Source of the DNA: a virus
DNA length: 30,578 bases
Strand: one strand, 5' to 3'
IMG/VR virus record: IMGVR_UViG_3300045988_171550
Location: 1 to 30,578 of that record
Positions 559-29,458 of the stretch are shown here, piece after piece; positions within the stretch are counted from its first letter, which is position 1, and each line of letters begins with the position of its first letter. The position numbers were made by a program, and so were the translations under genes. The notes beneath the pieces are model-generated. The model did no database searches, had not been told where the DNA came from, and worked only from the letters and a program-made list of their open reading frames with translations.

Positions 559-984
559 ATGAATAGATGTGAATTTATTGGTAGACCAGTTAAAGCACTT
601 GAATTAAAAAAGACTTCAAATGGCAATAATATATTAACATTTACATTAGCAGTTAGAAGAGAATATAAAAATGTTAATGGAGAATATGATAGTGATTTTA
701 TTAGATTAAAAGCATTTAAGAATAGTGCTAACTTCATAAGCACTTATGTAAAAGTAGGAGATTTAATTTATATTGAAGCAACATATGTAAGTAGCACATA
801 TGATAAAGATGGACAAAAATTATATAGTCAAGATTTAATTGTTACTAAAGTAAAATGTTTAAGTGCTTCAAAATCAAAAAAAGAAGATAAAAAAGAAGAA
901 ACACCAACAACTCAAAATGAAGTAGACCCATATAAACAATTTGCAGATGAAACTGAAATAAATGAAAATGACTTTCCATTTTAA
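559..984 (+). CDS. ssb: Single-stranded DNA-binding protein with an acidic C-terminal tail (…NDFPF)
   Basis: OB-fold-like N-terminal region, a low-complexity linker, and a C-terminal D-F-P-F motif typical of SSB. A strong RBS (AAGGAAGGAAAAAAAATG) precedes the start. Confidence 0.8.
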   Translation: MNRCEFIGRPVKALELKKTSNGNNILTFTLAVRREYKNVNGEYDSDFIRLKAFKNSANFISTYVKVGDLIYIEATYVSSTYDKDGQKLYSQDLIVTKVKCLSASKSKKEDKKEETPTTQNEVDPYKQFADETEINENDFPF

Positions 985-4304: not shown

Positions 4305-5090
4305 ATGAAAATATTTCTTAGTTCATTAGAAAATGGGCAATGTTCATTAATTAATGAGAAAAATGGCAAAAGACAAGAAAGTGCTATATATATGTATAAT
4401 CAAGGCGTAAGATACAAATGGAATTTAATGAGTTTTTATTACATAAAAAGCAAAAAAGAATTAGCAATATATATAAGAGATAGAAGTGAATTAATTGAAA
4501 TTGATAGTGGAGCACACAGTTTTCAAAAAGGAAAAAAAGTAGATTGGGTAGAATATACCAAACAATATGCTGAATTTATAAAAGAATTTGATAGACCGAA
4601 TGTTGTAGGTTATTTTGAAATGGATGTTGATAATATAATTGGCTATGATAAAGTATTAGAATTAAGAAAGATATTAGAAAGCGTTTCAAATAAAATAATA
4701 CCAGTATGGCACAAAAATAGTGGTATAGAAGAATATAAAAAAATGTGTAAGGATTATGCTGGAAAGATAATAGCAATAACAGGTTTTAAAAATGAAGATA
4801 TAAAAGACGAACAATATTTAATGTTTTTGAAATATGCTAAAAAATTTAATTGTAAAGTGCATTGTTTAGGTATGACAAGAAAAAAAATTTTAGATAAAGT
4901 TCCTTTTGATTTCGTAGATAGTAGTTCTTGGAAACAAAGTGGTATATTTGGTAGAATAGATGGCAAAGGTAAAGTCACAAAAAAATTCAGCAAAGAAAAA
5001 CGAGAAATAGTTTTTATGGAAAATTATAAAGTAGGAATAAAAATGCAATACCATTATTATGAGAAATGGAAAAAAGAATGTAAAGATTAG
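4305..5090 (+). CDS. dpdA: tRNA-guanine-transglycosylase (TGT) superfamily protein, DpdA-like DNA 7-deazaguanine transglycosylase
   Basis: EIDSGAHSFQ aligns to the TGT catalytic DSGGFQ box. KVHCLGMT aligns to the TGT YLMGVG box. VPFDFVDSSSWKQSGIFG aligns to TGT GIDMFDCVLPTRSGRNGQAF, which holds the nucleophile Asp. A protein of this kind in a phage, next to a ParB-like gene and a YhhQ transporter, points to DpdA. Confidence 0.65.
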   Translation: MKIFLSSLENGQCSLINEKNGKRQESAIYMYNQGVRYKWNLMSFYYIKSKKELAIYIRDRSELIEIDSGAHSFQKGKKVDWVEYTKQYAEFIKEFDRPNVVGYFEMDVDNIIGYDKVLELRKILESVSNKIIPVWHKNSGIEEYKKMCKDYAGKIIAITGFKNEDIKDEQYLMFLKYAKKFNCKVHCLGMTRKKILDKVPFDFVDSSSWKQSGIFGRIDGKGKVTKKFSKEKREIVFMENYKVGIKMQYHYYEKWKKECKD

Positions 5091-5134: not shown

Positions 5135-5794
5135 ATGAATATATTATTAGGAATTACAGGAATAATATTATGTTTTAGTATAGAAATTTTGATAGAAAAG
5201 ATATTTAAAAAAGAAGGATTATATGTATGGGTAAGTGTTGCATTAATAACGGCGAATATATTAGTTGCTAAAAATATTAATGTATTAAATTTACAGGCTA
5301 CACTTGGAAATATATTATTTGCAAGTACATTTCTTGCAACTGACATATTAAGTGAGAAATATAGTTCTAAAGATAGCAAGAAAGCAGTTAATATGGGTAT
5401 TATAGCAGTTATATTATTTACAATTGCTACACAATTTAGTTTATTGTTTAAACCAAATGAATTAGATATGGTAAATAACAGTTTAAAGACAATATTTACT
5501 TTCAATTTAAGAATAAGCATATCAAGTATCATAATGTGCTATTTAAGTAATATGCTAGACATAATGTTGTTTGAAAAAATAAAGAAAAAAATACCAAATA
5601 AAATGTGGGTAAGAAATAATATAGCAACAATAATAAGCAATTGTTTAGAAAATTATTTATTCACATTATTTGCATTTATTGGTATTTATGATATAGGAAC
5701 GATATTATCAATTGCTACAACAACAACTATATTAGAAATTATGATAGCAATATGTGATACACCGTTTTTATATTTAAGCAAGAAATTAAAATAA
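5135..5794 (+). CDS. yhhQ: YhhQ/QueT-family queuosine-precursor (preQ0/preQ1) transporter, a polytopic membrane protein
   Basis: 219 aa with about 6 predicted TM segments. The FLATD motif (GNILFASTFLATDIL) aligns with E. coli YhhQ (FIFLATDLTV). The gene is adjacent to the DpdA-like gene. Confidence 0.65.
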   Translation: MNILLGITGIILCFSIEILIEKIFKKEGLYVWVSVALITANILVAKNINVLNLQATLGNILFASTFLATDILSEKYSSKDSKKAVNMGIIAVILFTIATQFSLLFKPNELDMVNNSLKTIFTFNLRISISSIIMCYLSNMLDIMLFEKIKKKIPNKMWVRNNIATIISNCLENYLFTLFAFIGIYDIGTILSIATTTTILEIMIAICDTPFLYLSKKLK

Positions 5795-5810: not shown

Positions 5811-6200
5811 ATGGTAAAAGGAGATACACCGGCACAGAATAAAATTAAAAAAGATGAATTTGAAAAATTATGTAGTTTACAATGTACTTATAATGAAATA
5901 TGTGATTGGTTTGATATTGATGATAAAACACTTAACGAATGGTGCAGGTCAACATATGGGACTACATTTTCCGAGGTATTCAAGATAAAAAGAGGTACAG
6001 GACAAATATCACTTCGAAGAACTCAATGGAAGTTAGCGGAGAAGAGTGCCGCAATGGCAATATTTCTAGGTAAACAATATTTAGGTCAAACTGATAAAGT
6101 AGAAACAAGTGGAAATGTATCTATAACACCTCAAATAGATATTAATGTTGTAGATAATAGTGAACTTGAAAGTATATTATATGAAAGTGATAAGAAATAA
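5811..6200 (+). CDS. terS: terminase small subunit (HTH-containing, P27-like)
   Basis: 129 aa, located upstream of the large terminase. The N-terminal HTH-like segment (EICDWFDIDDKTLNEW) and the conserved AAMAIFLGKQYLGQTDK block resemble small terminases of Firmicutes phages. Confidence 0.55.
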   Translation: MVKGDTPAQNKIKKDEFEKLCSLQCTYNEICDWFDIDDKTLNEWCRSTYGTTFSEVFKIKRGTGQISLRRTQWKLAEKSAAMAIFLGKQYLGQTDKVETSGNVSITPQIDINVVDNSELESILYESDKK

Positions 6201-8534: not shown

Positions 8535-8750
8535 TTGGAATTAAGGTGTAAGGCAAGTAAGAGATTTCTATTTGATATAAATATAGAAGAATATTATAAT
8601 AATTTAAAAAAAATGGGTATAGAAATAAAAACTCCTATACTTATTAAAATACCTTGTGGTAAATGTAAATTAATAGAGGAATATGAAATATATCCTACAC
8701 ATTACATTCATATTAGAAGTTATAAAAGGGAATTTGACAAAAGAGATTAA
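8535..8750 (+). CDS. hypothetical small Cys-containing protein (71 aa, TTG start)
   Basis: RBS TAGGAGGAATAAAATTG, and a CxxC motif (PCGKCK). Confidence 0.4.
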   Translation: MELRCKASKRFLFDINIEEYYNNLKKMGIEIKTPILIKIPCGKCKLIEEYEIYPTHYIHIRSYKREFDKRD

Positions 8751-8809
8751 AAGTGATATTATAATTATGATATAAAAGTGCAAAAAATGTGTCGAAAAAG
8801 CATAAGAAG

Positions 8810-8859: not shown

Positions 8860-9201
8860 ATGAAAGAAATTATTAATAAATTTGTGAAAAAAATACAAAA
8901 AATAAAAGAAATTATTAATAAATTTGTGAAAAAAATACAAAAAATAAAAAAATATTATAAAACTAGATGGAAATTATATTTATATTATAAAAATCAATGT
9001 ATAGGTAAAAGATATATAGATGCAGATTTTGCACCTATGGGTAAAGAATATATGGTTAAAATTAAACATATGAAACATTTAGTAGGTGGTAATAATGTTC
9101 AAATGATAGTTACTGCCTATAAATATAAATATAGTAGTGAAAAGACTAGAGAAGTGCATATAGAGGTAATACCTTATGAGGGGGTGACAATAAATGAATA
9201 A
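8860..9201 (+). CDS. hypothetical protein (113 aa) with a duplicated N-terminal 14-aa segment
   Basis: RBS AAGGAGGCATAAAATG. A perfect 42-bp tandem duplication encodes KEIINKFVKKIQKI twice. Confidence 0.45.
   Translation: MKEIINKFVKKIQKIKEIINKFVKKIQKIKKYYKTRWKLYLYYKNQCIGKRYIDADFAPMGKEYMVKIKHMKHLVGGNNVQMIVTAYKYKYSSEKTREVHIEVIPYEGVTINE
8863..8946 (+). repeat. perfect 42-bp tandem duplication (2 copies), in frame within a CDS
   Basis: Bases 8863-8904 equal bases 8905-8946 (aaagaaattattaataaatttgtgaaaaaaatacaaaaaata). Confidence 0.9.
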
Positions 9202-21940: not shown

Positions 21941-22144
21941 ATGAAAATGAGTAACAAAGTATATAACAAATTAAAATATTTCCTAATGATATTTTATCCA
22001 GCATTAACATTACTAATAAGTACATTAGGAACTATTTATGATTTTAATGTAGAAAAACTATTACTAACAATAAGTGCAATTGTTACATTTATTGGTACTA
22101 TTACTGGAATTTCAAATGTAAATTACAACAAAAATAACAAATAG
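21941..22144 (+). CDS. holin (two predicted TM helices)
   Basis: A 67-aa protein with two hydrophobic helices and a charged C-terminus, a strong RBS (AAAAGGAGGAATAGCAAATG), and a position immediately upstream of the endolysin. Confidence 0.6.
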   Translation: MKMSNKVYNKLKYFLMIFYPALTLLISTLGTIYDFNVEKLLLTISAIVTFIGTITGISNVNYNKNNK

Positions 22145-22174: not shown

Positions 22175-22897
22175 ATGATGAAAGTAAATGAGTTTATTGA
22201 CAAGTTAGAATTAGCCTTAAAAGAACCATCTAAATACCAAAGCGGAGGCTGGGGTAAATGGGATGGCAAGTATTGGAATTGGGATTGTATCTGTCTAATT
22301 AAAGGTATTCTATGGGGCTGGGAGGCTGATAAAAACAAACCTCGTGGCGGTGGAGCAATATACACTTCAAACGGTGTTCCAGATATTGGGGAAAACTCAA
22401 TGATTAATCAATGTAAAAATGTATCATCAGATTTTACTAATATTAAAAAAGGTGAAATGCTTTGGATGGATGGACATGCTGGTGTTTATGTTGGTGATGG
22501 TAATGTAATCGAAGCAACAGCAGGTTGGGATACTTGGAAAGTTATCAAATCTCAAATTGGTAAAAATGGTGAGAGAACTTACAATGGTAAAGTTGGAAGT
22601 AGAAATTGGGAAAAACATGGTTTCTTAACTTATGTAGATTATACTGAAAATGAAATTGTTGAGCCTGTTGAACCAAAAGAAGAAGAACCTATTGAAGAAC
22701 CAAAATTTGTAGTAGGAGATAAAGTTAAACCTTTAAAACTTGTTAATTACAATGGTACACCACTTGTTCAATATGATGAAACATATACTATTATGGAAAT
22801 CAATGGTGATAGAGTAGTTTTAGGTGCTCCTAGAGGTTCAAAAGGTACATTAGAAATCTGGGCTTCAATGAATATTAATGATATAGAAAAAATATAA
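22175..22897 (+). CDS. endolysin: N-terminal NlpC/P60-type cysteine peptidase plus C-terminal SH3b-like cell-wall-binding domain
   Basis: WDCICLIKG holds the catalytic Cys (the DCSGL box). NKPRGG and MDGHAGVYVGDGNVIEA hold the His box. The C-terminal 65 aa (VGDKVKPLKLVNYNGTPLV…) are SH3b-like. RBS AAAGGAGGAATATATTATG. Confidence 0.7.
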   Translation: MMKVNEFIDKLELALKEPSKYQSGGWGKWDGKYWNWDCICLIKGILWGWEADKNKPRGGGAIYTSNGVPDIGENSMINQCKNVSSDFTNIKKGEMLWMDGHAGVYVGDGNVIEATAGWDTWKVIKSQIGKNGERTYNGKVGSRNWEKHGFLTYVDYTENEIVEPVEPKEEEPIEEPKFVVGDKVKPLKLVNYNGTPLVQYDETYTIMEINGDRVVLGAPRGSKGTLEIWASMNINDIEKI

Positions 22898-23073
22898 TAA
22901 AAATGGCTATTTTTAGCCACACACACAAACTTTCTTTAAAAATTAAGCAATTATATTAACACAAGTAATAGGTATTTATCATAGCCTGTTCTATGAGGCT
23001 AGTTATATAAATCAGTAGAACTTTGGGAAAATATAACTCATATCTATTACAATAACAACTATATTTATTGCAC

Positions 23074-23103
23074 AAAAAAATAACCTTAATTGGTTATTTT
23101 TTT
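23074..23103. terminator. bidirectional rho-independent terminator (A-run, stem, T-run)
   Basis: AAAAAAA-AATAACC-TTAATT-GGTTATT-TTTTT. A perfect 7-bp stem is flanked by an A7 run and a T5 run. Confidence 0.55.
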
Positions 23104-23275
23104 CTTTATCTACCCAAAATAGATAAAATCAGTGATATATGGGAACATATCAACAATAATATTATATCATATAAGTAAATATATTACTAGCACCCTAAAC
23201 CACACTAGGCATCGGTTCTTTAAGACTTTATATATTTACTATACTAATTATATCATATTAATTTATTTATTTAAA

Positions 23276-23480
23276 ATAAAAAAACATCCAGTAAAGGATG
23301 TAATCAAATAGACATAACCCCGTTTTAGATTAAAAATTTTATGCATATAAATCTTTAATCCCATAAAGCATTACCCGTGCATAGCAATTGTAATCAAGGT
23401 TCTTTACTTACCTTCAACAACTCCTCGTTCCCTATGCAGTTATTCGCCATCTATTCTAAATTACCAATCAATGATAACCT
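23276..23480 (-). ncRNA. candidate minus-strand non-coding RNA of about 200 nt with its own promoter and intrinsic terminator. Function unknown.
   Basis: A minus-strand promoter at 23515..23487 and a minus-strand terminator at 23301..23276 bracket a segment with higher GC than its surroundings. The segment has no ORF longer than 18 aa and no SD. It is the only minus-strand transcription signal found in a genome whose genes are all on the + strand. Confidence 0.4.
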
Positions 23481-23486
23481 AGATTA

Positions 23487-23515
23487 AGTATATCATAATT
23501 ATTTATGAATGTAAA
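23487..23515 (-). promoter_or_regulatory. minus-strand sigma-70 promoter with extended -10 (TTTACA-N17-TGaTATACT)
   Basis: The reverse complement of 23510-23515 is TTTACA, the spacer is 17 nt, and the reverse complement of 23487-23492 is TATACT, preceded by TGa. Confidence 0.45.
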
Positions 23516-23641
23516 TTATAAAAATTAATAAAATATATTCAAAAAAAACAAATTTTCTGCAAAAAATGACTTTAAAATAAGCATTTTTGATTATTTTTAA
23601 TAAAAAAGTGTAATTTTTCTAAAAAAAATGTAACAAAAGTG

Positions 23642-23670
23642 TTGACTTTCTATAATAACTATTATATAAT
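23642..23670 (+). promoter_or_regulatory. consensus sigma-70 promoter (TTGACT-N17-TATAAT) driving the early-gene block
   Basis: The -35 is at 23642-23647 and the -10 at 23665-23670, about 35 nt upstream of the first early ORF. Confidence 0.6.
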
Positions 23671-23703: not shown

Positions 23704-23988
23704 ATGAAAAGTTTAGAAGAACTAAAAAAAATGGTAAAAGAAGCAACAAATTGTTGTGGAGAGGAGGAAGCGAAATTTTTATCTTACAATGTTAAAGAAA
23801 ATAAGGCAACGTTACATCCAGAATATGTTGATGCTAAAAGATTTGCAGAAGAAGGTGGTCAAGTATTAGTACTTGGTACTGATAAGGTTTATACTTATTC
23901 AATTAAGAACGAAGAAGAATATATGAATTATTTAAGAAATGAAATTAAACAAGAAAATTATGCAACTATGAACAGATGTGGATTATAA
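23704..23988 (+). CDS. hypothetical early protein (94 aa)
   Basis: RBS GGAAGGAGATTACAATG. It is the first gene after the strong promoter. Confidence 0.5.
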   Translation: MKSLEELKKMVKEATNCCGEEEAKFLSYNVKENKATLHPEYVDAKRFAEEGGQVLVLGTDKVYTYSIKNEEEYMNYLRNEIKQENYATMNRCGL

Positions 23989-24696: not shown

Positions 24697-25005
24697 ATGA
24701 TGAATACAGTAATGCTAGTTGGGCATTTAACTCAAGACCCACATTCTATAACAATTGATGGAAAGACTAAAATAGTTGCATCTATTGCAGTAAGAAGAAA
24801 TTATAAGAATTCAGATGGAGAATATGTAGAAGATTTTATTCCAGTTACAATATGGCAAGGTGTTGATTCACAAATTTGTGAATTATGTAAAAAGGGAGAC
24901 ACAATTGCAATTAAAGGAATAGTTCGTTATGATAATGAATTAGAAATTGTTGCTGAAAAAGTTTCATTCTTATCAAGGAGTAAAAATGAAAAAGAAGAAA
25001 AATAA
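24697..25005 (+). CDS. SSB-like OB-fold protein lacking the acidic C-terminal tail. It is a paralog of the SSB at 559..984.
   Basis: AVRRNYKNSDGEYVEDFI aligns with AVRREYKNVNGEYDSDFI of the SSB at 559..984. The protein ends in a Lys/Glu-rich segment with no DFPF. RBS AAGGAGGGAGGTAAAAATG. Confidence 0.65.
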   Translation: MMNTVMLVGHLTQDPHSITIDGKTKIVASIAVRRNYKNSDGEYVEDFIPVTIWQGVDSQICELCKKGDTIAIKGIVRYDNELEIVAEKVSFLSRSKNEKEEK

Positions 25006-27019: not shown

Positions 27020-27424
27020 ATGAAAAATGTAGAACAAAAAGAAAATAAAGAAAGGATTATTGAAAATAAGAATTATAGGGAATTATTTAAAGAATATTAT
27101 CATATTGAATTTAGCAGTAATTACGATATACACCATATTGATTTAAATCACAATAATAATGATATTGATAATTTAATGATTTTACCAAAAAAATTGCATC
27201 AACAGTATCACAATTTATTAAATTCCATTAATTATGAAGAAGATATTTTTTTAAAAAAATTCAGTGCAAGAATTAATGGTAATTCAGTTAATTCAAATAA
27301 TTATAATATATCAATGATAGAAGAATTTATACCTGTATTTCAAAAATGCAATATGTGGTTTGATTATAAGATGTATTTAAATGGAATACTTCCAAATATT
27401 CATAATTTTAAATTGGAGGATTAA
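27020..27424 (+). CDS. HNH endonuclease (homing-endonuclease-like)
   Basis: DIHHIDLNHNNNDIDNLMILPKKLHQQYH has the H-N-H arrangement. The ATG at 27020 is in frame with the GTG shown in the track and has a weak RBS AAAGGGAAAAAATATG. Confidence 0.55.
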   Translation: MKNVEQKENKERIIENKNYRELFKEYYHIEFSSNYDIHHIDLNHNNNDIDNLMILPKKLHQQYHNLLNSINYEEDIFLKKFSARINGNSVNSNNYNISMIEEFIPVFQKCNMWFDYKMYLNGILPNIHNFKLED

Positions 27425-27425
27425 A

Positions 27426-28145
27426 ATGGCTGTAATAAGGGTTAATAAGACAAAAGATTATACTATTATGTGTAATTATCATTTAAAAGAAAAGGAGATG
27501 AGTTTAAAAGCAAAAGGGTTATTAAGTGTAATGTTATCATTACCAGATGATTGGGATTATTCAATAACTGGTTTAGTCAAAATATGTAAAGAAAATGAAA
27601 GTGCAATTAAAACTACATTATCCGAACTAAAACAATTTGGTTATCTAAAAATAACAAAAATAATGCCAAATGAAAGCAATTCAGGAAGAATTGAATACAT
27701 ATATGATATATATGAATTTCCAAAACAAGAGGGTAAAAAACAAGGGGTAGAAAATCAACCTCTTGAAATTCAACCTCTAGAAAATCAAGGACAATTAAAT
27801 ACTAATATATTAAATACTAAAGAAAAAGAATTAAATAATATATATATAAAAGAAAGTAAGAAAGAAAATGCCGATTACGATAAAATTATAAATTCCTATA
27901 CTTCTAATGAAGATACAAAGCAATTACTTTATGAGTGGCTAAAGGTTAGGAAGATGAAAAAGGCTTTACCAACAAATAAAGCACTTGAGTTAAATCTTAA
28001 AAGGTTAGAGGACTATGCAAAGCAAAGTAAGTTAGATATTAATAAGTATCTTGAGGAAGTTATAATTCGTGGGTGGCTTGCATTTTACCCAATAGAGAAT
28101 AAAACCAAACAAGAACCTGTAAGAGAAGAAAGACCGTGGCTATGA
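27426..28145 (+). CDS. replication initiation / replisome organizer protein (winged-helix N-terminal domain plus DnaD-like C-terminal domain)
   Basis: The N-terminal segment CNYHLKEKEMSLKAKGLLSVMLSLPDDWDYSITGLVKICKENESAIKTTLSELKQFGYLKI resembles phage replisome-organizer N-terminal domains, and the C-terminal …IIRGWLAFYP resembles DnaD-like domains. It sits upstream of the DnaB-like helicase. RBS TTGGAGGATTAAAATG. Confidence 0.5.
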   Translation: MAVIRVNKTKDYTIMCNYHLKEKEMSLKAKGLLSVMLSLPDDWDYSITGLVKICKENESAIKTTLSELKQFGYLKITKIMPNESNSGRIEYIYDIYEFPKQEGKKQGVENQPLEIQPLENQGQLNTNILNTKEKELNNIYIKESKKENADYDKIINSYTSNEDTKQLLYEWLKVRKMKKALPTNKALELNLKRLEDYAKQSKLDINKYLEEVIIRGWLAFYPIENKTKQEPVREERPWL

Positions 28146-29458
28146 TAAATGATGTAAGTGAATATTTTGATAACGGATTAGTTTATGATATAAACCAAGA
28201 TAATATTGAAGATTTAGAAATACAGTTTTTAAGCACCATAGTTAATTACCAAAACTTTAGTTTTGATTATTTACAACTAGAACCAAAGCACTTAACTAAA
28301 CCAATACATAAAGAATTATTAAAGTATATGATAGATAATTATAGTAAATATGGAGTTACTGATTATTATTTAATACTTATTGATTTTATAAAATTAAAAG
28401 ATAATGAAAAAGATAGAAATGAACTATATAAAATTGTGTATACTGATTTAAGCCCAGTGCATAATAAAAACCAATATTTTATGGCAATGCAAAGTATTTT
28501 GTTTGATAATTATAAAAAAAGAGCAATATTATATTTTAGTAATAAATTACAAAACAGAGAAATAAGTGTTACACAGTATTTATCAAATATGAATTTAATT
28601 AATGATATGAATTTAAAAATAAAAAGCACTTTAATTACTGTAAAAGAACTTGAAGATAATATAAATAGCAACAACACATTGATAGAATTAAAACACTTCA
28701 AAAAATTAAATGAAGTATTAAAATTATCACAAGGGGATTATTTAACAATAGGTGCTGGAACTGGTGCAGGTAAAAGTGGATTATTATTAAATCTTATGAA
28801 TGATTTAATGGACAGGTATCAATGTATTTATTTCAATATGGAAATGAATAAATCAACAATATATCAAAGAATAGTATCTATTGCTAGTGATATACCAATT
28901 AATTATGTAGTTAGACCAGAAACTGAATATCAAGAGCAAAGCATAAGTGCTACAATGAAGTATATCGAAGATAATAATATAATAGTAGAACATAATGCTA
29001 CAACATTAAATGAAATTAGAAGTATAATTGCAAAGTATAAAAATACTGATAAACATACAATAATATTTTTAGACCATATAGGATTAATTAGGTCAAATGA
29101 AAAGAAATCTTTATATGAACAAACAACTGAAATTGCAAAGTCATTAAGACAAATATGTTTAAAATATAATTGCACAATAATAGCAGCATCACAATTAAAT
29201 AGAACAAGTTATAATTCAGATGAACCAAGTATCTCAATGTTAAAAGATAGTGGAGAACTTGAAAATAGTTCAAGTAAAGTTATAATGCTATATAAGGATA
29301 AAAATCAAGATACAAGAAATGATTTATATACAAATGATATGATAATTGATATTGTTAAAAATAGAAATGGTTTATGTGGAAGAATACCATTAAAGTATTA
29401 TAAAGCAAAACAAATATTCAAAGAAAAAGAAAATTATGAAGGGGGTACAAATGAATAA
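28136..29458 (+). CDS. dnaB: replicative DNA helicase (DnaB-like)
   Basis: Walker A GAGTGAGKSG and a Walker B-like IIFLDHIGLI are present, and RecA-fold helicase motifs follow (AASQLNRTS…). The gene sits next to the initiator gene. Confidence 0.8.
   Translation: MAMINDVSEYFDNGLVYDINQDNIEDLEIQFLSTIVNYQNFSFDYLQLEPKHLTKPIHKELLKYMIDNYSKYGVTDYYLILIDFIKLKDNEKDRNELYKIVYTDLSPVHNKNQYFMAMQSILFDNYKKRAILYFSNKLQNREISVTQYLSNMNLINDMNLKIKSTLITVKELEDNINSNNTLIELKHFKKLNEVLKLSQGDYLTIGAGTGAGKSGLLLNLMNDLMDRYQCIYFNMEMNKSTIYQRIVSIASDIPINYVVRPETEYQEQSISATMKYIEDNNIIVEHNATTLNEIRSIIAKYKNTDKHTIIFLDHIGLIRSNEKKSLYEQTTEIAKSLRQICLKYNCTIIAASQLNRTSYNSDEPSISMLKDSGELENSSSKVIMLYKDKNQDTRNDLYTNDMIIDIVKNRNGLCGRIPLKYYKAKQIFKEKENYEGGTNE

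What the first reader, a model, noticed from the sequence alone, without database searches (positions are those of the whole stretch)
23276..23515. Orphan minus-strand ncRNA with its own extended -10 promoter and terminator, in an otherwise strictly + strand genome
The signals on the minus strand are TTTACA-N17-TGaTATACT at 23515..23487 and the hairpin ACAUCC-UUUACU-GGAUGU followed by U7 at 23301..23276. The roughly 200-nt segment between them has clearly higher GC than its flanks, no ORF longer than 18 aa and no SD. It shows the direct repeat TTGATTACA twice and a long-range GCAUAG/CUAUGC pairing. It is the only antisense transcription unit detectable and it sits in the 800-bp gap between the lysis and early genes. 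Possible roles include a regulatory sRNA, an anti-defence RNA (for example a decoy), a remnant attP core or an origin-associated RNA. None of these can be decided from the sequence alone.
Basis: seen in the sequence. Interest (0 to 1): 0.6.

Follow-up and report, generated by a model that had tools for sequence, protein, structure and literature searches.

The report
Candidate leftward small RNA gene in phage
An uncultured, AT-rich gut phage carries, between its lysis and early genes, a compact backwards-facing unit (promoter, about 200 non-coding bases, terminator) that is most likely a small RNA gene of an undescribed family, but neither its expression nor its function could be shown.

Summary
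The sequence features are real. On the minus strand, TTTACA-17-TGaTATACT lies at 23515..23487. A 6-bp hairpin plus U7 lies at 23301..23276. Between them is a relatively GC-rich stretch of about 204 nt with no credible ORF. The unit is present, with promoter and terminator essentially invariant, in three further variants from other metagenomes. Both small ORFs fail conservation tests.

It matches no Rfam family, tRNA, GenBank phage or PLSDB plasmid. Exact-seed scans of IMG/VR, JGI metagenomes and GTDB genomes found nothing real.

The four variants are 92-99% identical and show no compensatory changes, so the predicted three-way-junction fold is unproven. The RNA body is no better conserved than its flanks. 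No target complementarity exceeded shuffled controls.

- It is not the only antisense unit. A second leftward promoter-to-terminator unit follows, and that one is conserved more widely among relatives.
- A 33-aa ORF exists, although it runs past the terminator.
- The TTGATTACA repeat is not conserved.

Best reading: an orphan, stand-alone phage small RNA sitting where temperate relatives keep lysogeny genes. Function is unknown. It is a new member of a known kind and of modest interest.

The parts
23487..23515 (-). Promoter P1: -35 TTTACA (23515..23510), 17-nt spacer ending in TG, -10 TATACT (23492..23487). The predicted start is A23480.
   Evidence: It is invariant in the window, L007, L078 and L070. 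The 46 nt around it are 78% identical to the region of the second leftward promoter (D1).
23277..23480 (-). Predicted RNA-A, about 204 nt and non-coding.
   Evidence: Minus-sense MFE is -49.5 kcal/mol, z = -3.1. There is no Rfam family and no tRNA. Four variants are 92-99% identical. A covariance model finds it only in those loci.
23458..23480 (-). 5'-terminal hairpin (9 bp, loop UUGAU) that begins at the predicted +1.
   Evidence: Two one-sided changes in L070 keep the pairs (U-G to C-G, C-G to U-G). The one broken pair lies upstream of the predicted start.
23306..23456 (-). Predicted three-way junction: closing stem 23456..23449 with 23313..23306, arm 2 at 23438..23378 (includes UGCAUAG/CUAUGCA), arm 3 at 23374..23314.
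   Evidence: The closing stem, the arm-2 base and the outer arm-3 helix never vary, so they say nothing for or against the fold.
23386..23421 (-). Variable sub-hairpin of arm 2. By my count it holds 6 of the 17 variable columns of the RNA body (23393, 23394, 23414, 23416, 23417, 23421).
   Evidence: L070 changes on both strands lengthen the helix (UUGUAG/CUACAA). L078 changes break one pair and create an alternative GUAAG/CUUAC hairpin.
23276..23301 (-). Intrinsic terminator T1: ACAUCC-UUUACU-GGAUGU followed by U7.
   Evidence: The stem-loop is invariant in all variants. L070 has one U fewer.
23247..23275 (-). Second leftward promoter P2: TTTAAA-17-TGaTATAAT. It starts 1 nt after the T1 U-tract.
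   Evidence: It is homologous to the leftward promoter of relatives that lack RNA-A.
23174..23240 (-). 67-bp element with 11-bp terminal inverted repeats. It forms the first part of the second leftward transcript (RNA-B).
   Evidence: I17. It recurs at 96-98% identity in three otherwise unrelated viral contigs.
23074..23110 (.). Bidirectional terminator T2 (12-bp stem AAAAAAATAACC/GGTTATTTTTTT). It ends the late operon on the + strand and RNA-B on the - strand.
   Evidence: (I15). It is conserved in L003, L004 and L096-L106. The loop is inverted in L007 and L004.
22903..22920 (-). Hairpin T3. It has a T-run only on the minus strand and lies just before the endolysin stop codon.
   Evidence: On the + strand it is followed by CACACAC rather than a T-run.
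23642..23670 (+). Rightward early promoter TTGACT-17-TATAAT (11/12). It diverges from P1 across a 126-bp stretch of 12-17% GC.
   Evidence: The promoter region is also kept upstream of the 94-aa gene in prophage-like contexts that lack RNA-A.

Best explanation
Positions 23480..23277 of the minus strand are a stand-alone small RNA gene. A housekeeping-sigma promoter with an extended -10 (P1) starts transcription at about A23480. The transcript begins with a 9-bp 5' hairpin, folds into a roughly 150-nt three-armed core, and ends at a canonical intrinsic terminator, giving a non-coding RNA of about 204 nt.

It occupies the leftward side of a divergent promoter pair, facing away from the early promoter. 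This is the position where temperate relatives carry lysogeny genes. It travels with the early-gene module that starts with the 94-aa ORF.

It overlaps no gene, and nothing is encoded downstream of it. I therefore infer that it acts in trans, as a regulator or decoy that binds a host or phage RNA or protein. It probably works alongside a second leftward small transcript, RNA-B (about 23240..23072), that follows it.

Shown: the signals, their conservation, non-coding status, and restriction to one phage lineage. Inferred: transcription, the fold, and action in trans. The target is unknown.
For: - Promoter and terminator sit on the same strand about 204 nt apart.
- Only 9 sites in the whole window reach at least 10/12 with TG. 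I count 7 of them in intergenic DNA and 2 in this gap.
- The signals are invariant across four variants while the body varies: 1/55 against 17/179, p = 0.046.
- The 18-aa ORF is interrupted in L070. By my reading the 33-aa ORF has 1 synonymous and 4 non-synonymous changes, and it runs past the terminator.
- There is no Pfam signal in any frame.
- Minus-sense MFE is -49.5 kcal/mol (z = -3.1), against -27.4 for the plus sense.
- The region is G-rich on the minus strand, opposite to the skew of the + strand genes.
- 9 of 11 substitutions in predicted stems keep a pair.
- The hairpin starts exactly at the predicted +1.
- Relatives without RNA-A still keep a leftward promoter, a short RNA body and terminator T2. 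Leftward small transcription is therefore a conserved feature of this phage group.
- A minus-only terminator, T3, shields the endolysin gene.
Against: - There are no expression data.
- There is no compensatory change. The shuffle control equals the observed value.
- All 11 stem substitutions are transitions, and the fraction that keeps pairing is what transitions alone would give (my analysis).
- The RNA body (9.5% variable columns) is no better conserved than the neighbouring AT-rich spacer (11.9%) or the flanking genes at 88-96% identity. Selection on the RNA itself is therefore not shown.
- Promoter-like hexamer pairs are abundant by chance in 26% GC DNA.
- No homologue was found outside one narrow lineage.
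- No complementarity to phage translation-initiation regions or the adjacent UTRs exceeds shuffled controls.
Confidence: 0.4

Rival explanations
1. It is a non-functional relic. The leftward promoter cassette was duplicated, and a piece of foreign or decayed DNA was trapped between promoter and terminator when a lysogeny module was lost or replaced. The region may be transcribed, but the RNA does nothing.
For: - The body is no more conserved than its flanks.
- There is no covariation.
- It has a narrow distribution and is absent from the closest other lineage, which has only 407-422 bp here.
- The P1 and P2 regions look like duplicates, 78% identical over 46 nt.
- The gap is a patchwork of indels and inserted elements.
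Against: - The unit is intact in four variants from independent samples, with signals more conserved than the body.
- There is no trace of a decayed ORF.
- It is more GC-rich and more stably folding than typical AT-rich filler.
Confidence: 0.25
2. It is a cis-acting transcriptional device. Leftward transcription from P1 and P2 collides with, or pairs with, + strand read-through from the late operon. This insulates the early genes from late transcription on circular or concatemeric DNA. The act of transcription matters, not the RNA sequence.
For: - All genes are on the + strand of a circular map.
- Three leftward terminators (T1, T2, T3) and two leftward promoters are packed between the late and early genes.
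- A leftward promoter is conserved in relatives even though the transcribed body varies.
Against: - T2 is already a strong + strand terminator upstream of RNA-A (12-bp stem plus T7), so little read-through should reach it.
- This model does not explain the higher GC content or the stable fold of RNA-A.
Confidence: 0.15
3. It is a DNA-level element such as a replication origin, a packaging site or an attP remnant, and the promoter and terminator resemblances are incidental.
For: - It is a long non-coding gap with an extremely AT-rich stretch next to it.
- Contig ends of several assemblies fall at 23555-23662.
- The neighbouring 67-bp element is shared by unrelated phages.
Against: - There is no tRNA and no genome match.
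- No integrase was recognised in the window. No ORF scanned matched one, and every ORF over 300 aa looks like a structural, packaging or DnaB-type gene.
- The terminase small subunit lies at 5811 and the replication genes at 27381-29458, both far away.
- The contig breakpoints are scattered over the 12-17% GC stretch, as expected from poor coverage, and they lie outside RNA-A.
- There are no iterons inside RNA-A.
Confidence: 0.07
4. It encodes a small protein, the 33-aa ORF at 23364..23263 (MGLKIYMHKIFNLKRGYVYLITSFTGCFFILNK). This could be, for example, a type I toxin-like membrane peptide.
For: - It is an ATG ORF with a hydrophobic C-terminal half.
- The reading frame is open in all variants.
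Against: - The stop codon lies after the terminator U-tract, so a terminated RNA would lack it.
- The upstream G-run varies (GGG, GG or CCGG), so there is no conserved Shine-Dalgarno sequence.
- By my reading there are 4 non-synonymous changes to 1 synonymous change.
- There is no partner antisense RNA or toxin-antitoxin layout.
Confidence: 0.03

Closest known systems
Stand-alone phage or prophage small RNAs with their own promoter and intrinsic terminator (for example DicF of Qin, IpeX of DLP12, AgvB/AsxR of EHEC prophages; named from my own knowledge)
   Same: It is a short non-coding unit in an accessory or intergenic position of a phage genome. It is bounded by a sigma-70-type promoter and a rho-independent terminator, and it overlaps no gene, so it is presumably trans-acting.
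   Different: There is no sequence or structure match to any of them. Rfam 15 gave nothing above E = 1.9 in the unit, and the only AgvB hit (14 bits, E = 9.7) lies over T2 outside it. At about 204 nt with a predicted three-way junction, it is longer and more structured than typical seed-type sRNAs. The host is Gram-positive-like and unknown. No target was found.
Lambda OOP RNA and P22 sar RNA (cis-antisense phage RNAs; from my own knowledge)
   Same: It is a small RNA made from its own promoter, opposite to the main direction of transcription, near the lysis-lysogeny control region.
   Different: OOP and sar overlap a protein-coding gene and act by perfect complementarity. RNA-A overlaps no ORF on the + strand.
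P4 CI RNA and P1/P7 c4 RNA (RNA immunity factors; from my own knowledge)
   Same: An RNA, rather than a protein, occupies the regulatory side of the early control region in a phage with no recognisable repressor gene at that place. There is a variable sub-hairpin that could set specificity.
   Different: Those RNAs are processed from the operon they control and have defined complementary target sites in it. No complementary site for RNA-A was found in the early leader or at any translation-initiation region.
RNA anti-CRISPRs (solitary CRISPR-repeat mimics; from my own knowledge)
   Same: It is an orphan promoter-to-terminator RNA unit in a variable phage region.
   Different: No CRISPR-repeat-like sequence was recognised. 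The only hit is CRISPR-DR46 at 18.3 bits against a gathering score of 50, on the + strand over the terminator hairpin. The host's repeats are unknown.
Lysogeny-replacement regions of virulent Sfi21-like Streptococcus thermophilus phages (from my own knowledge of comparative genomics of dairy phages)
   Same: The genes all run in one direction, and a short non-coding or remnant segment lies between the lysin and the early genes, where temperate relatives carry a leftward lysogeny module.
   Different: Those segments contain recognisable gene remnants. Here no coding remnant is detectable, and complete transcription signals are present.

Membership tests
Any Rfam 15 family (4227 models, including riboswitches, 6S, SRP, tmRNA, phi29 pRNA, ribozymes, DicF, IpeX, AgvB, CRISPR repeats) | Covariance-model score at or above the family's gathering threshold | tested here: not met
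   There were 0 matches at gathering score in the whole window. At E <= 10, only two chance-level + strand hits overlap the unit, at 18.3 and 14.7 bits.
Bacterial-type stand-alone sRNA gene (generic kind) | A promoter and an intrinsic terminator on the same strand, flanking a short ORF-free segment | tested here: met
   The signals are conserved in four variants.
Bacterial-type stand-alone sRNA gene (generic kind) | A discrete transcript is detected | not testable with these tools
   No transcriptome data are available. The host is uncultured and unidentified.
Structured RNA family (conserved fold) | Statistically supported covariation in predicted helices | tested here: inconclusive
   Four sequences at 92-99% identity give 0 double-sided changes. 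The shuffle control equals the observed value.
Cis-antisense RNA (OOP or sar type) | Overlaps a gene on the opposite strand | tested here: not met
   No + strand gene lies between 22897 and 23704.
Type I toxin-antitoxin locus | A conserved small hydrophobic toxin ORF with a ribosome-binding site, overlapped or flanked by the antisense RNA | tested here: not met
   The 33-aa ORF lacks a conserved Shine-Dalgarno sequence, runs past the terminator, and by my reading has 4 non-synonymous to 1 synonymous changes. The + strand ORFs (59 and 36 aa) use GTG starts without a Shine-Dalgarno sequence and are disrupted by indels in L070.
attP core or tRNA-derived remnant | Identity to a host tRNA or gene 3' end, with an integrase nearby | tested here: not met
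   ARAGORN found 0 genes. An invariant 23-mer is absent from 185,579 species genomes. No integrase was recognised among the ORFs scanned or listed. Only exact-seed searches were possible, so a diverged match is not excluded.
RNA anti-CRISPR (repeat mimic) | Contains a sequence matching the CRISPR repeat of the host's system | tested here: inconclusive
   There is no credible match to Rfam CRISPR-DR models. The host and its repeats are unknown.
Riboswitch or 5' leader | A regulated ORF downstream on the same strand | tested here: not met
   Downstream on the minus strand lie only P2, the 67-bp element, T2, T3 and the convergent endolysin gene.

The most novel reading that the evidence does not exclude
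The space after the lysis genes in this group of gut phages is a dedicated leftward small-RNA slot. A conserved promoter and terminator scaffold expresses interchangeable RNA cargo. That cargo includes three different short RNA-B bodies, a mobile 67-nt hairpin element and the 204-nt RNA-A. RNA-A would then be a new structured RNA class that replaces a protein-based lysogeny or immunity module, or acts as an anti-defence decoy.
Probability: 0.1. Interest if true: 0.65.

Novelty: new member of a known kind. Interest (0 to 1): 0.3.

Why it matters
If RNA-A is transcribed and functional, it adds an undescribed family to the small set of phage-encoded RNAs known from Gram-positive-type, AT-rich gut phages. 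It also points to a locus where RNA cargo appears to be swapped under constant expression signals. That would give a concrete place to look for RNA-based regulation or counter-defence in uncultured phages.

As it stands, it is an annotation-level candidate. It has a narrow distribution, no known host, no target and no statistical support for its fold. It neither overturns anything nor makes an open question directly testable.

Tried and rejected
1. Known RNA families. Rfam was run at gathering score on the window and at E <= 10 on 901 nt and 239 nt, and ARAGORN was run. Nothing was found.

2. Similar DNA. blastn found no match in GenBank phages or PLSDB plasmids. Five exact or gapped seeds from RNA-A in IMG/VR gave only chance hits, checked by blastn. 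One 18-mer in JGI metagenomes gave five hits, all in contigs of 51-68% GC and confined to the seed. An invariant 23-mer in GTDB genomes gave none.

3. Covariance model R1, run on 33 sources (the window and 32 loci). It finds only the known copies. Two weak L093 hits are local hairpin resemblances with the core deleted.

4. More diverged copies through synteny. All 94-aa-protein clusters and four endolysin clusters were looked up. RNA-A occurs only with the 94-aa early module. The L003-type relatives lack it.

5. Base-pairing targets. The best duplex with the 48 phage translation-initiation regions is -24.0 kcal/mol, weaker than the minimum of 29 of 30 shuffles. The late 3' UTR and the early 5' leader are not better than shuffles. 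RNA-B was beaten or equalled by 5 of 100 shuffles, but duplexes of this length are uninformative. A full-genome scan timed out.

6. Mimicry of the early gene's ribosome-binding region (I9, 71% over 24 nt). Rejected because the shared GAUUACAAU is not kept in L070 or L078.

7. TTGATTACA direct repeat as a binding site. Rejected for the same reason.

8. Pseudogene remnant. Six-frame Pfam scans found nothing.

9. CsrA-type GGA sponge or Shine-Dalgarno mimic (AGGGAACGAGGAG). This was only an impression from reading the sequence and was not tested.

10. Host identification. No close cultured phage exists. The 94-aa protein is absent from GTDB species genomes. Cluster members carry no organism names.

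Full report
Context. The window is a circularly closed contig: its last 55 bases repeat its first 55. GC is 25.7%, and every credible gene lies on the + strand.
- Recognisable genes include terminase small and large subunits, a Dp-1-type holin (21941-22144), an endolysin (22175-22897), two SSB genes, an ERF recombinase, a DnaB helicase and an HTH replication protein.
- There is also a DpdA-like transglycosylase next to a YhhQ/Vut_1 transporter.
- No integrase or repressor was recognised.
- There is no near relative among GenBank phages. The best terminase match is 29% identical.
- Identical or related contigs come from ENA and Logan metagenome assemblies.

Checking the observation. On the minus strand, TTTACA (23515..23510), a 17-nt spacer ending in TG, and TATACT (23492..23487) are present. 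So is the hairpin ACATCC-TTTACT-GGATGT (23301..23284) followed by seven T.
- GC rises to 30-39% between them, against 12-22% in the surrounding intergenic DNA. GC skew is negative on the + strand there, opposite to the genes.
- Loose promoter-like sites are no more frequent than in shuffled sequence: 228 against about 242.
- The strict class, at least 10/12 with an extended -10, has only nine members in the window. I count seven in intergenic DNA, and two of them are minus-strand sites inside this 806-bp gap.
- The terminator is the only clean minus-strand one apart from the endolysin-proximal hairpin.
  - A 33-aa ATG ORF exists at 23364..23263.
  - The unit is not the only antisense one (see below).
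  - The first TTGATTACA copy is not conserved.

Relatives. Look-ups through the 94-aa protein encoded at 23704-23988 recovered several copies.
- The same phage again (L005, L006).
- A near-identical variant, L007, with two differences.
- Two further variants, L078 and the L070 group (L070, L071, L074, L075, L076), each about 92-95% identical across the whole gap.
- In all of them the -35, the TG, the -10 and the terminator stem-loop are unchanged. A 29-nt block just 5' of the terminator (23302-23330) is also invariant.
- One of 55 signal positions varies, against 17 of 179 in the RNA body (one-sided Fisher p = 0.046).
- The body (9.5% variable columns) is no better conserved than the AT-rich spacer (11.9%) or the neighbouring genes at 88-96% nucleotide identity. 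Conservation alone therefore does not single out the RNA.

Coding or not.
- The 18-aa ORF (ATGGCGAAT...) acquires an in-frame TAG in L070.
- By my reading of the alignment, the 33-aa ORF has one synonymous and four non-synonymous differences, and the G-run upstream of it varies. Its stop codon lies beyond the U-tract.
- Six-frame translations of 23111-23660 hit no Pfam family at E <= 1.
- The unit is best read as non-coding.

Structure.
- The minus sense folds to -49.5 kcal/mol (z = -3.1, with 1 of 200 shuffles as good). The plus sense folds to -27.4 (z = -2.5).
- With the start at A23480, the RNA begins with a 9-bp hairpin (23480..23458).
- A closing stem (23456..23449 with 23313..23306) then carries two arms, 23438..23378 and 23374..23314, before the terminator.
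- Across the four variants, nine substitutions in predicted stems keep a pair through G-U and two break one. None is compensatory.
- The shuffle control equals the observed value.
- All eleven stem changes are transitions, so the proportion that keeps pairing is about what transitions alone give. The fold is compatible with the data but unproven.
- Six of the 17 variable body columns fall in one sub-hairpin (23421..23386). There L070 gains two extra pairs, and L078 switches to an alternative hairpin.

Identity. No Rfam family matches, and there is no tRNA or tmRNA.
- No similar DNA was found in GenBank phages or PLSDB plasmids.
- No real hit came from five seeds in IMG/VR, one in JGI metagenomes and one in GTDB genomes.
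- A covariance model built from the four variants finds only those copies in the window and 32 fetched loci.
- The RNA therefore belongs to no described family and is confined, as far as these searches reach, to one phage lineage.

Surroundings.
- Relatives that share the endolysin C-terminus and the first about 235 bp of the gap have a gap of only 407-422 bp and lack RNA-A. These are L003, L004, L096-L101, L105 and L106. Their first early gene is different, a 57-aa ORF.
- They nevertheless keep a leftward promoter (TTGAAA-17-TGATATAAT) followed by a 30-40-nt body. The body comes in different versions: L003-like (also carried by L070), L096-like, and the one shared by the window, L007 and L078.
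- After the body come a conserved hairpin (UUUAUCUAUUUUGGGUAGAUAAAG) and the bidirectional terminator equivalent to window 23103..23074.
- In the window this second unit (RNA-B) starts from TTTAAA-17-TGaTATAAT at 23275..23247, one base after the RNA-A U-tract. The two promoter regions are 78% alike over 46 nt.
- A third hairpin, at 22920..22903, has a T-run only on the minus strand and lies just before the endolysin stop.
- Leftward small transcription after the lysis genes thus looks like a conserved trait of the group. RNA-A is an extra cassette that came with the 94-aa early module.
- In prophage-like contexts the 94-aa gene keeps its own promoter but follows an integrase or a LysM/CAP gene, without RNA-A.

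Function. No base-pairing target was found.
- The best duplex with any of the 48 translation-initiation regions (-24.0 kcal/mol) is weaker than the minimum of 29 of 30 shuffled RNAs.
- The late 3' UTR and the early leader are unremarkable.
- A 24-nt resemblance to the early gene's ribosome-binding region is not conserved.

I therefore commit to the following explanation, with about 0.4 confidence. RNA-A is a stand-alone, trans-acting small RNA made from the leftward side of the divergent early control region. The main rival is a transcribed but functionless relic (0.25). Next come a cis-acting insulator (0.15), a DNA element (0.07) and a small protein (0.03).

Verdict. The features are real and conserved within a narrow lineage, and the non-coding RNA reading is reasonable. 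Expression, fold and function remain untested. It is a new member of a known kind (phage small RNA genes). Interest is 0.3.

Noticed in passing
window 23174-23240; L093 8479-8552; L094 2946-3029; L095 999-1065: A 67-bp element with perfect 11-bp terminal inverted repeats (AGTAAATATAT/ATATATTTACT). In the window it interrupts the ancestral leftward promoter, and the 11 bp TTATATCATAT are present on both sides (23163-73 and 23249-59). L003 and L004 lack it at the same spot. It recurs at 96-98% identity in three otherwise unrelated IMG/VR contigs of metagenome 3300045988. There it lies 400-760 bp upstream of terS-terL or 63 nt upstream of a 126-aa ORF, always pointing towards the downstream genes. 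It could be a mobile MITE-like element or a shared 5' RNA module. It is not in Rfam.
   Followed up: partly
window 23072-23275 (-); L003 4400-4560; L096-L106: A second leftward unit (RNA-B). The promoter, the hairpin UUUAUCUAUUUUGGGUAGAUAAAG and the bidirectional terminator are conserved across the wider phage group, but the 30-40-nt body between promoter and hairpin comes in different versions. This pattern suggests exchangeable RNA cargo under fixed signals.
   Followed up: partly
window 23074-23103; L007; L004: The 6-nt loop of the bidirectional terminator is inverted in L007 and L004 (TTAATT against AATTAA) while the stem is unchanged. This is a hairpin-loop inversion between close relatives.
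   Followed up: no
window 22898-23073: The stretch after the endolysin stop is shared at about 84% with more distant relatives (L003, L004) and contains a hairpin TAGCCT-GTTCTATG-AGGCTA. The window lacks a 41-bp segment at 22963/22964 that all relatives have, and L078 lacks about 56 bp further on. The hairpin at 22903-22920 has a T-run only on the minus strand, so on the + strand the late operon seems to end only at 23074-23110.
   Followed up: partly
window 23516-23641: A 126-bp spacer of 12-17% GC lies between the divergent promoters, with imperfect AT-rich inverted repeats (70-73%). Contig ends of several independent assemblies fall at 23555, 23605, 23651 and 23662. This is probably an assembly or coverage effect of the extreme AT content rather than physical genome ends.
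   Followed up: partly
window 4305-5090 and 5135-5794: A DpdA-like queuine tRNA-ribosyltransferase homologue (phrog_887, E = 1.2e-32) sits next to a YhhQ/Vut_1 precursor transporter (PF02592, E = 1.5e-34). This suggests 7-deazaguanine modification of the phage DNA.
   Followed up: no
window 559-984 and 24697-25005: There are two separate SSB genes (PF00436), one in the early block and one near the recombination and replication genes.
   Followed up: no
window 8860-9201: The ORF begins with an exact tandem duplication of 14 residues (KEIINKFVKKIQKI twice). It follows a 460-bp gap after the large terminase that holds a strong + strand promoter at 8734-8762.
   Followed up: no
L079-L088 (for example L080 3001-6285): A 77%-identical homologue of the 94-aa early protein sits, with its own promoter, between a LysM/CAP-domain gene and a lactate permease-LDH pair. 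The contigs are repeatedly about 44-46 kb long. This is either a prophage edge next to host genes or a larger phage carrying metabolic genes.
   Followed up: no
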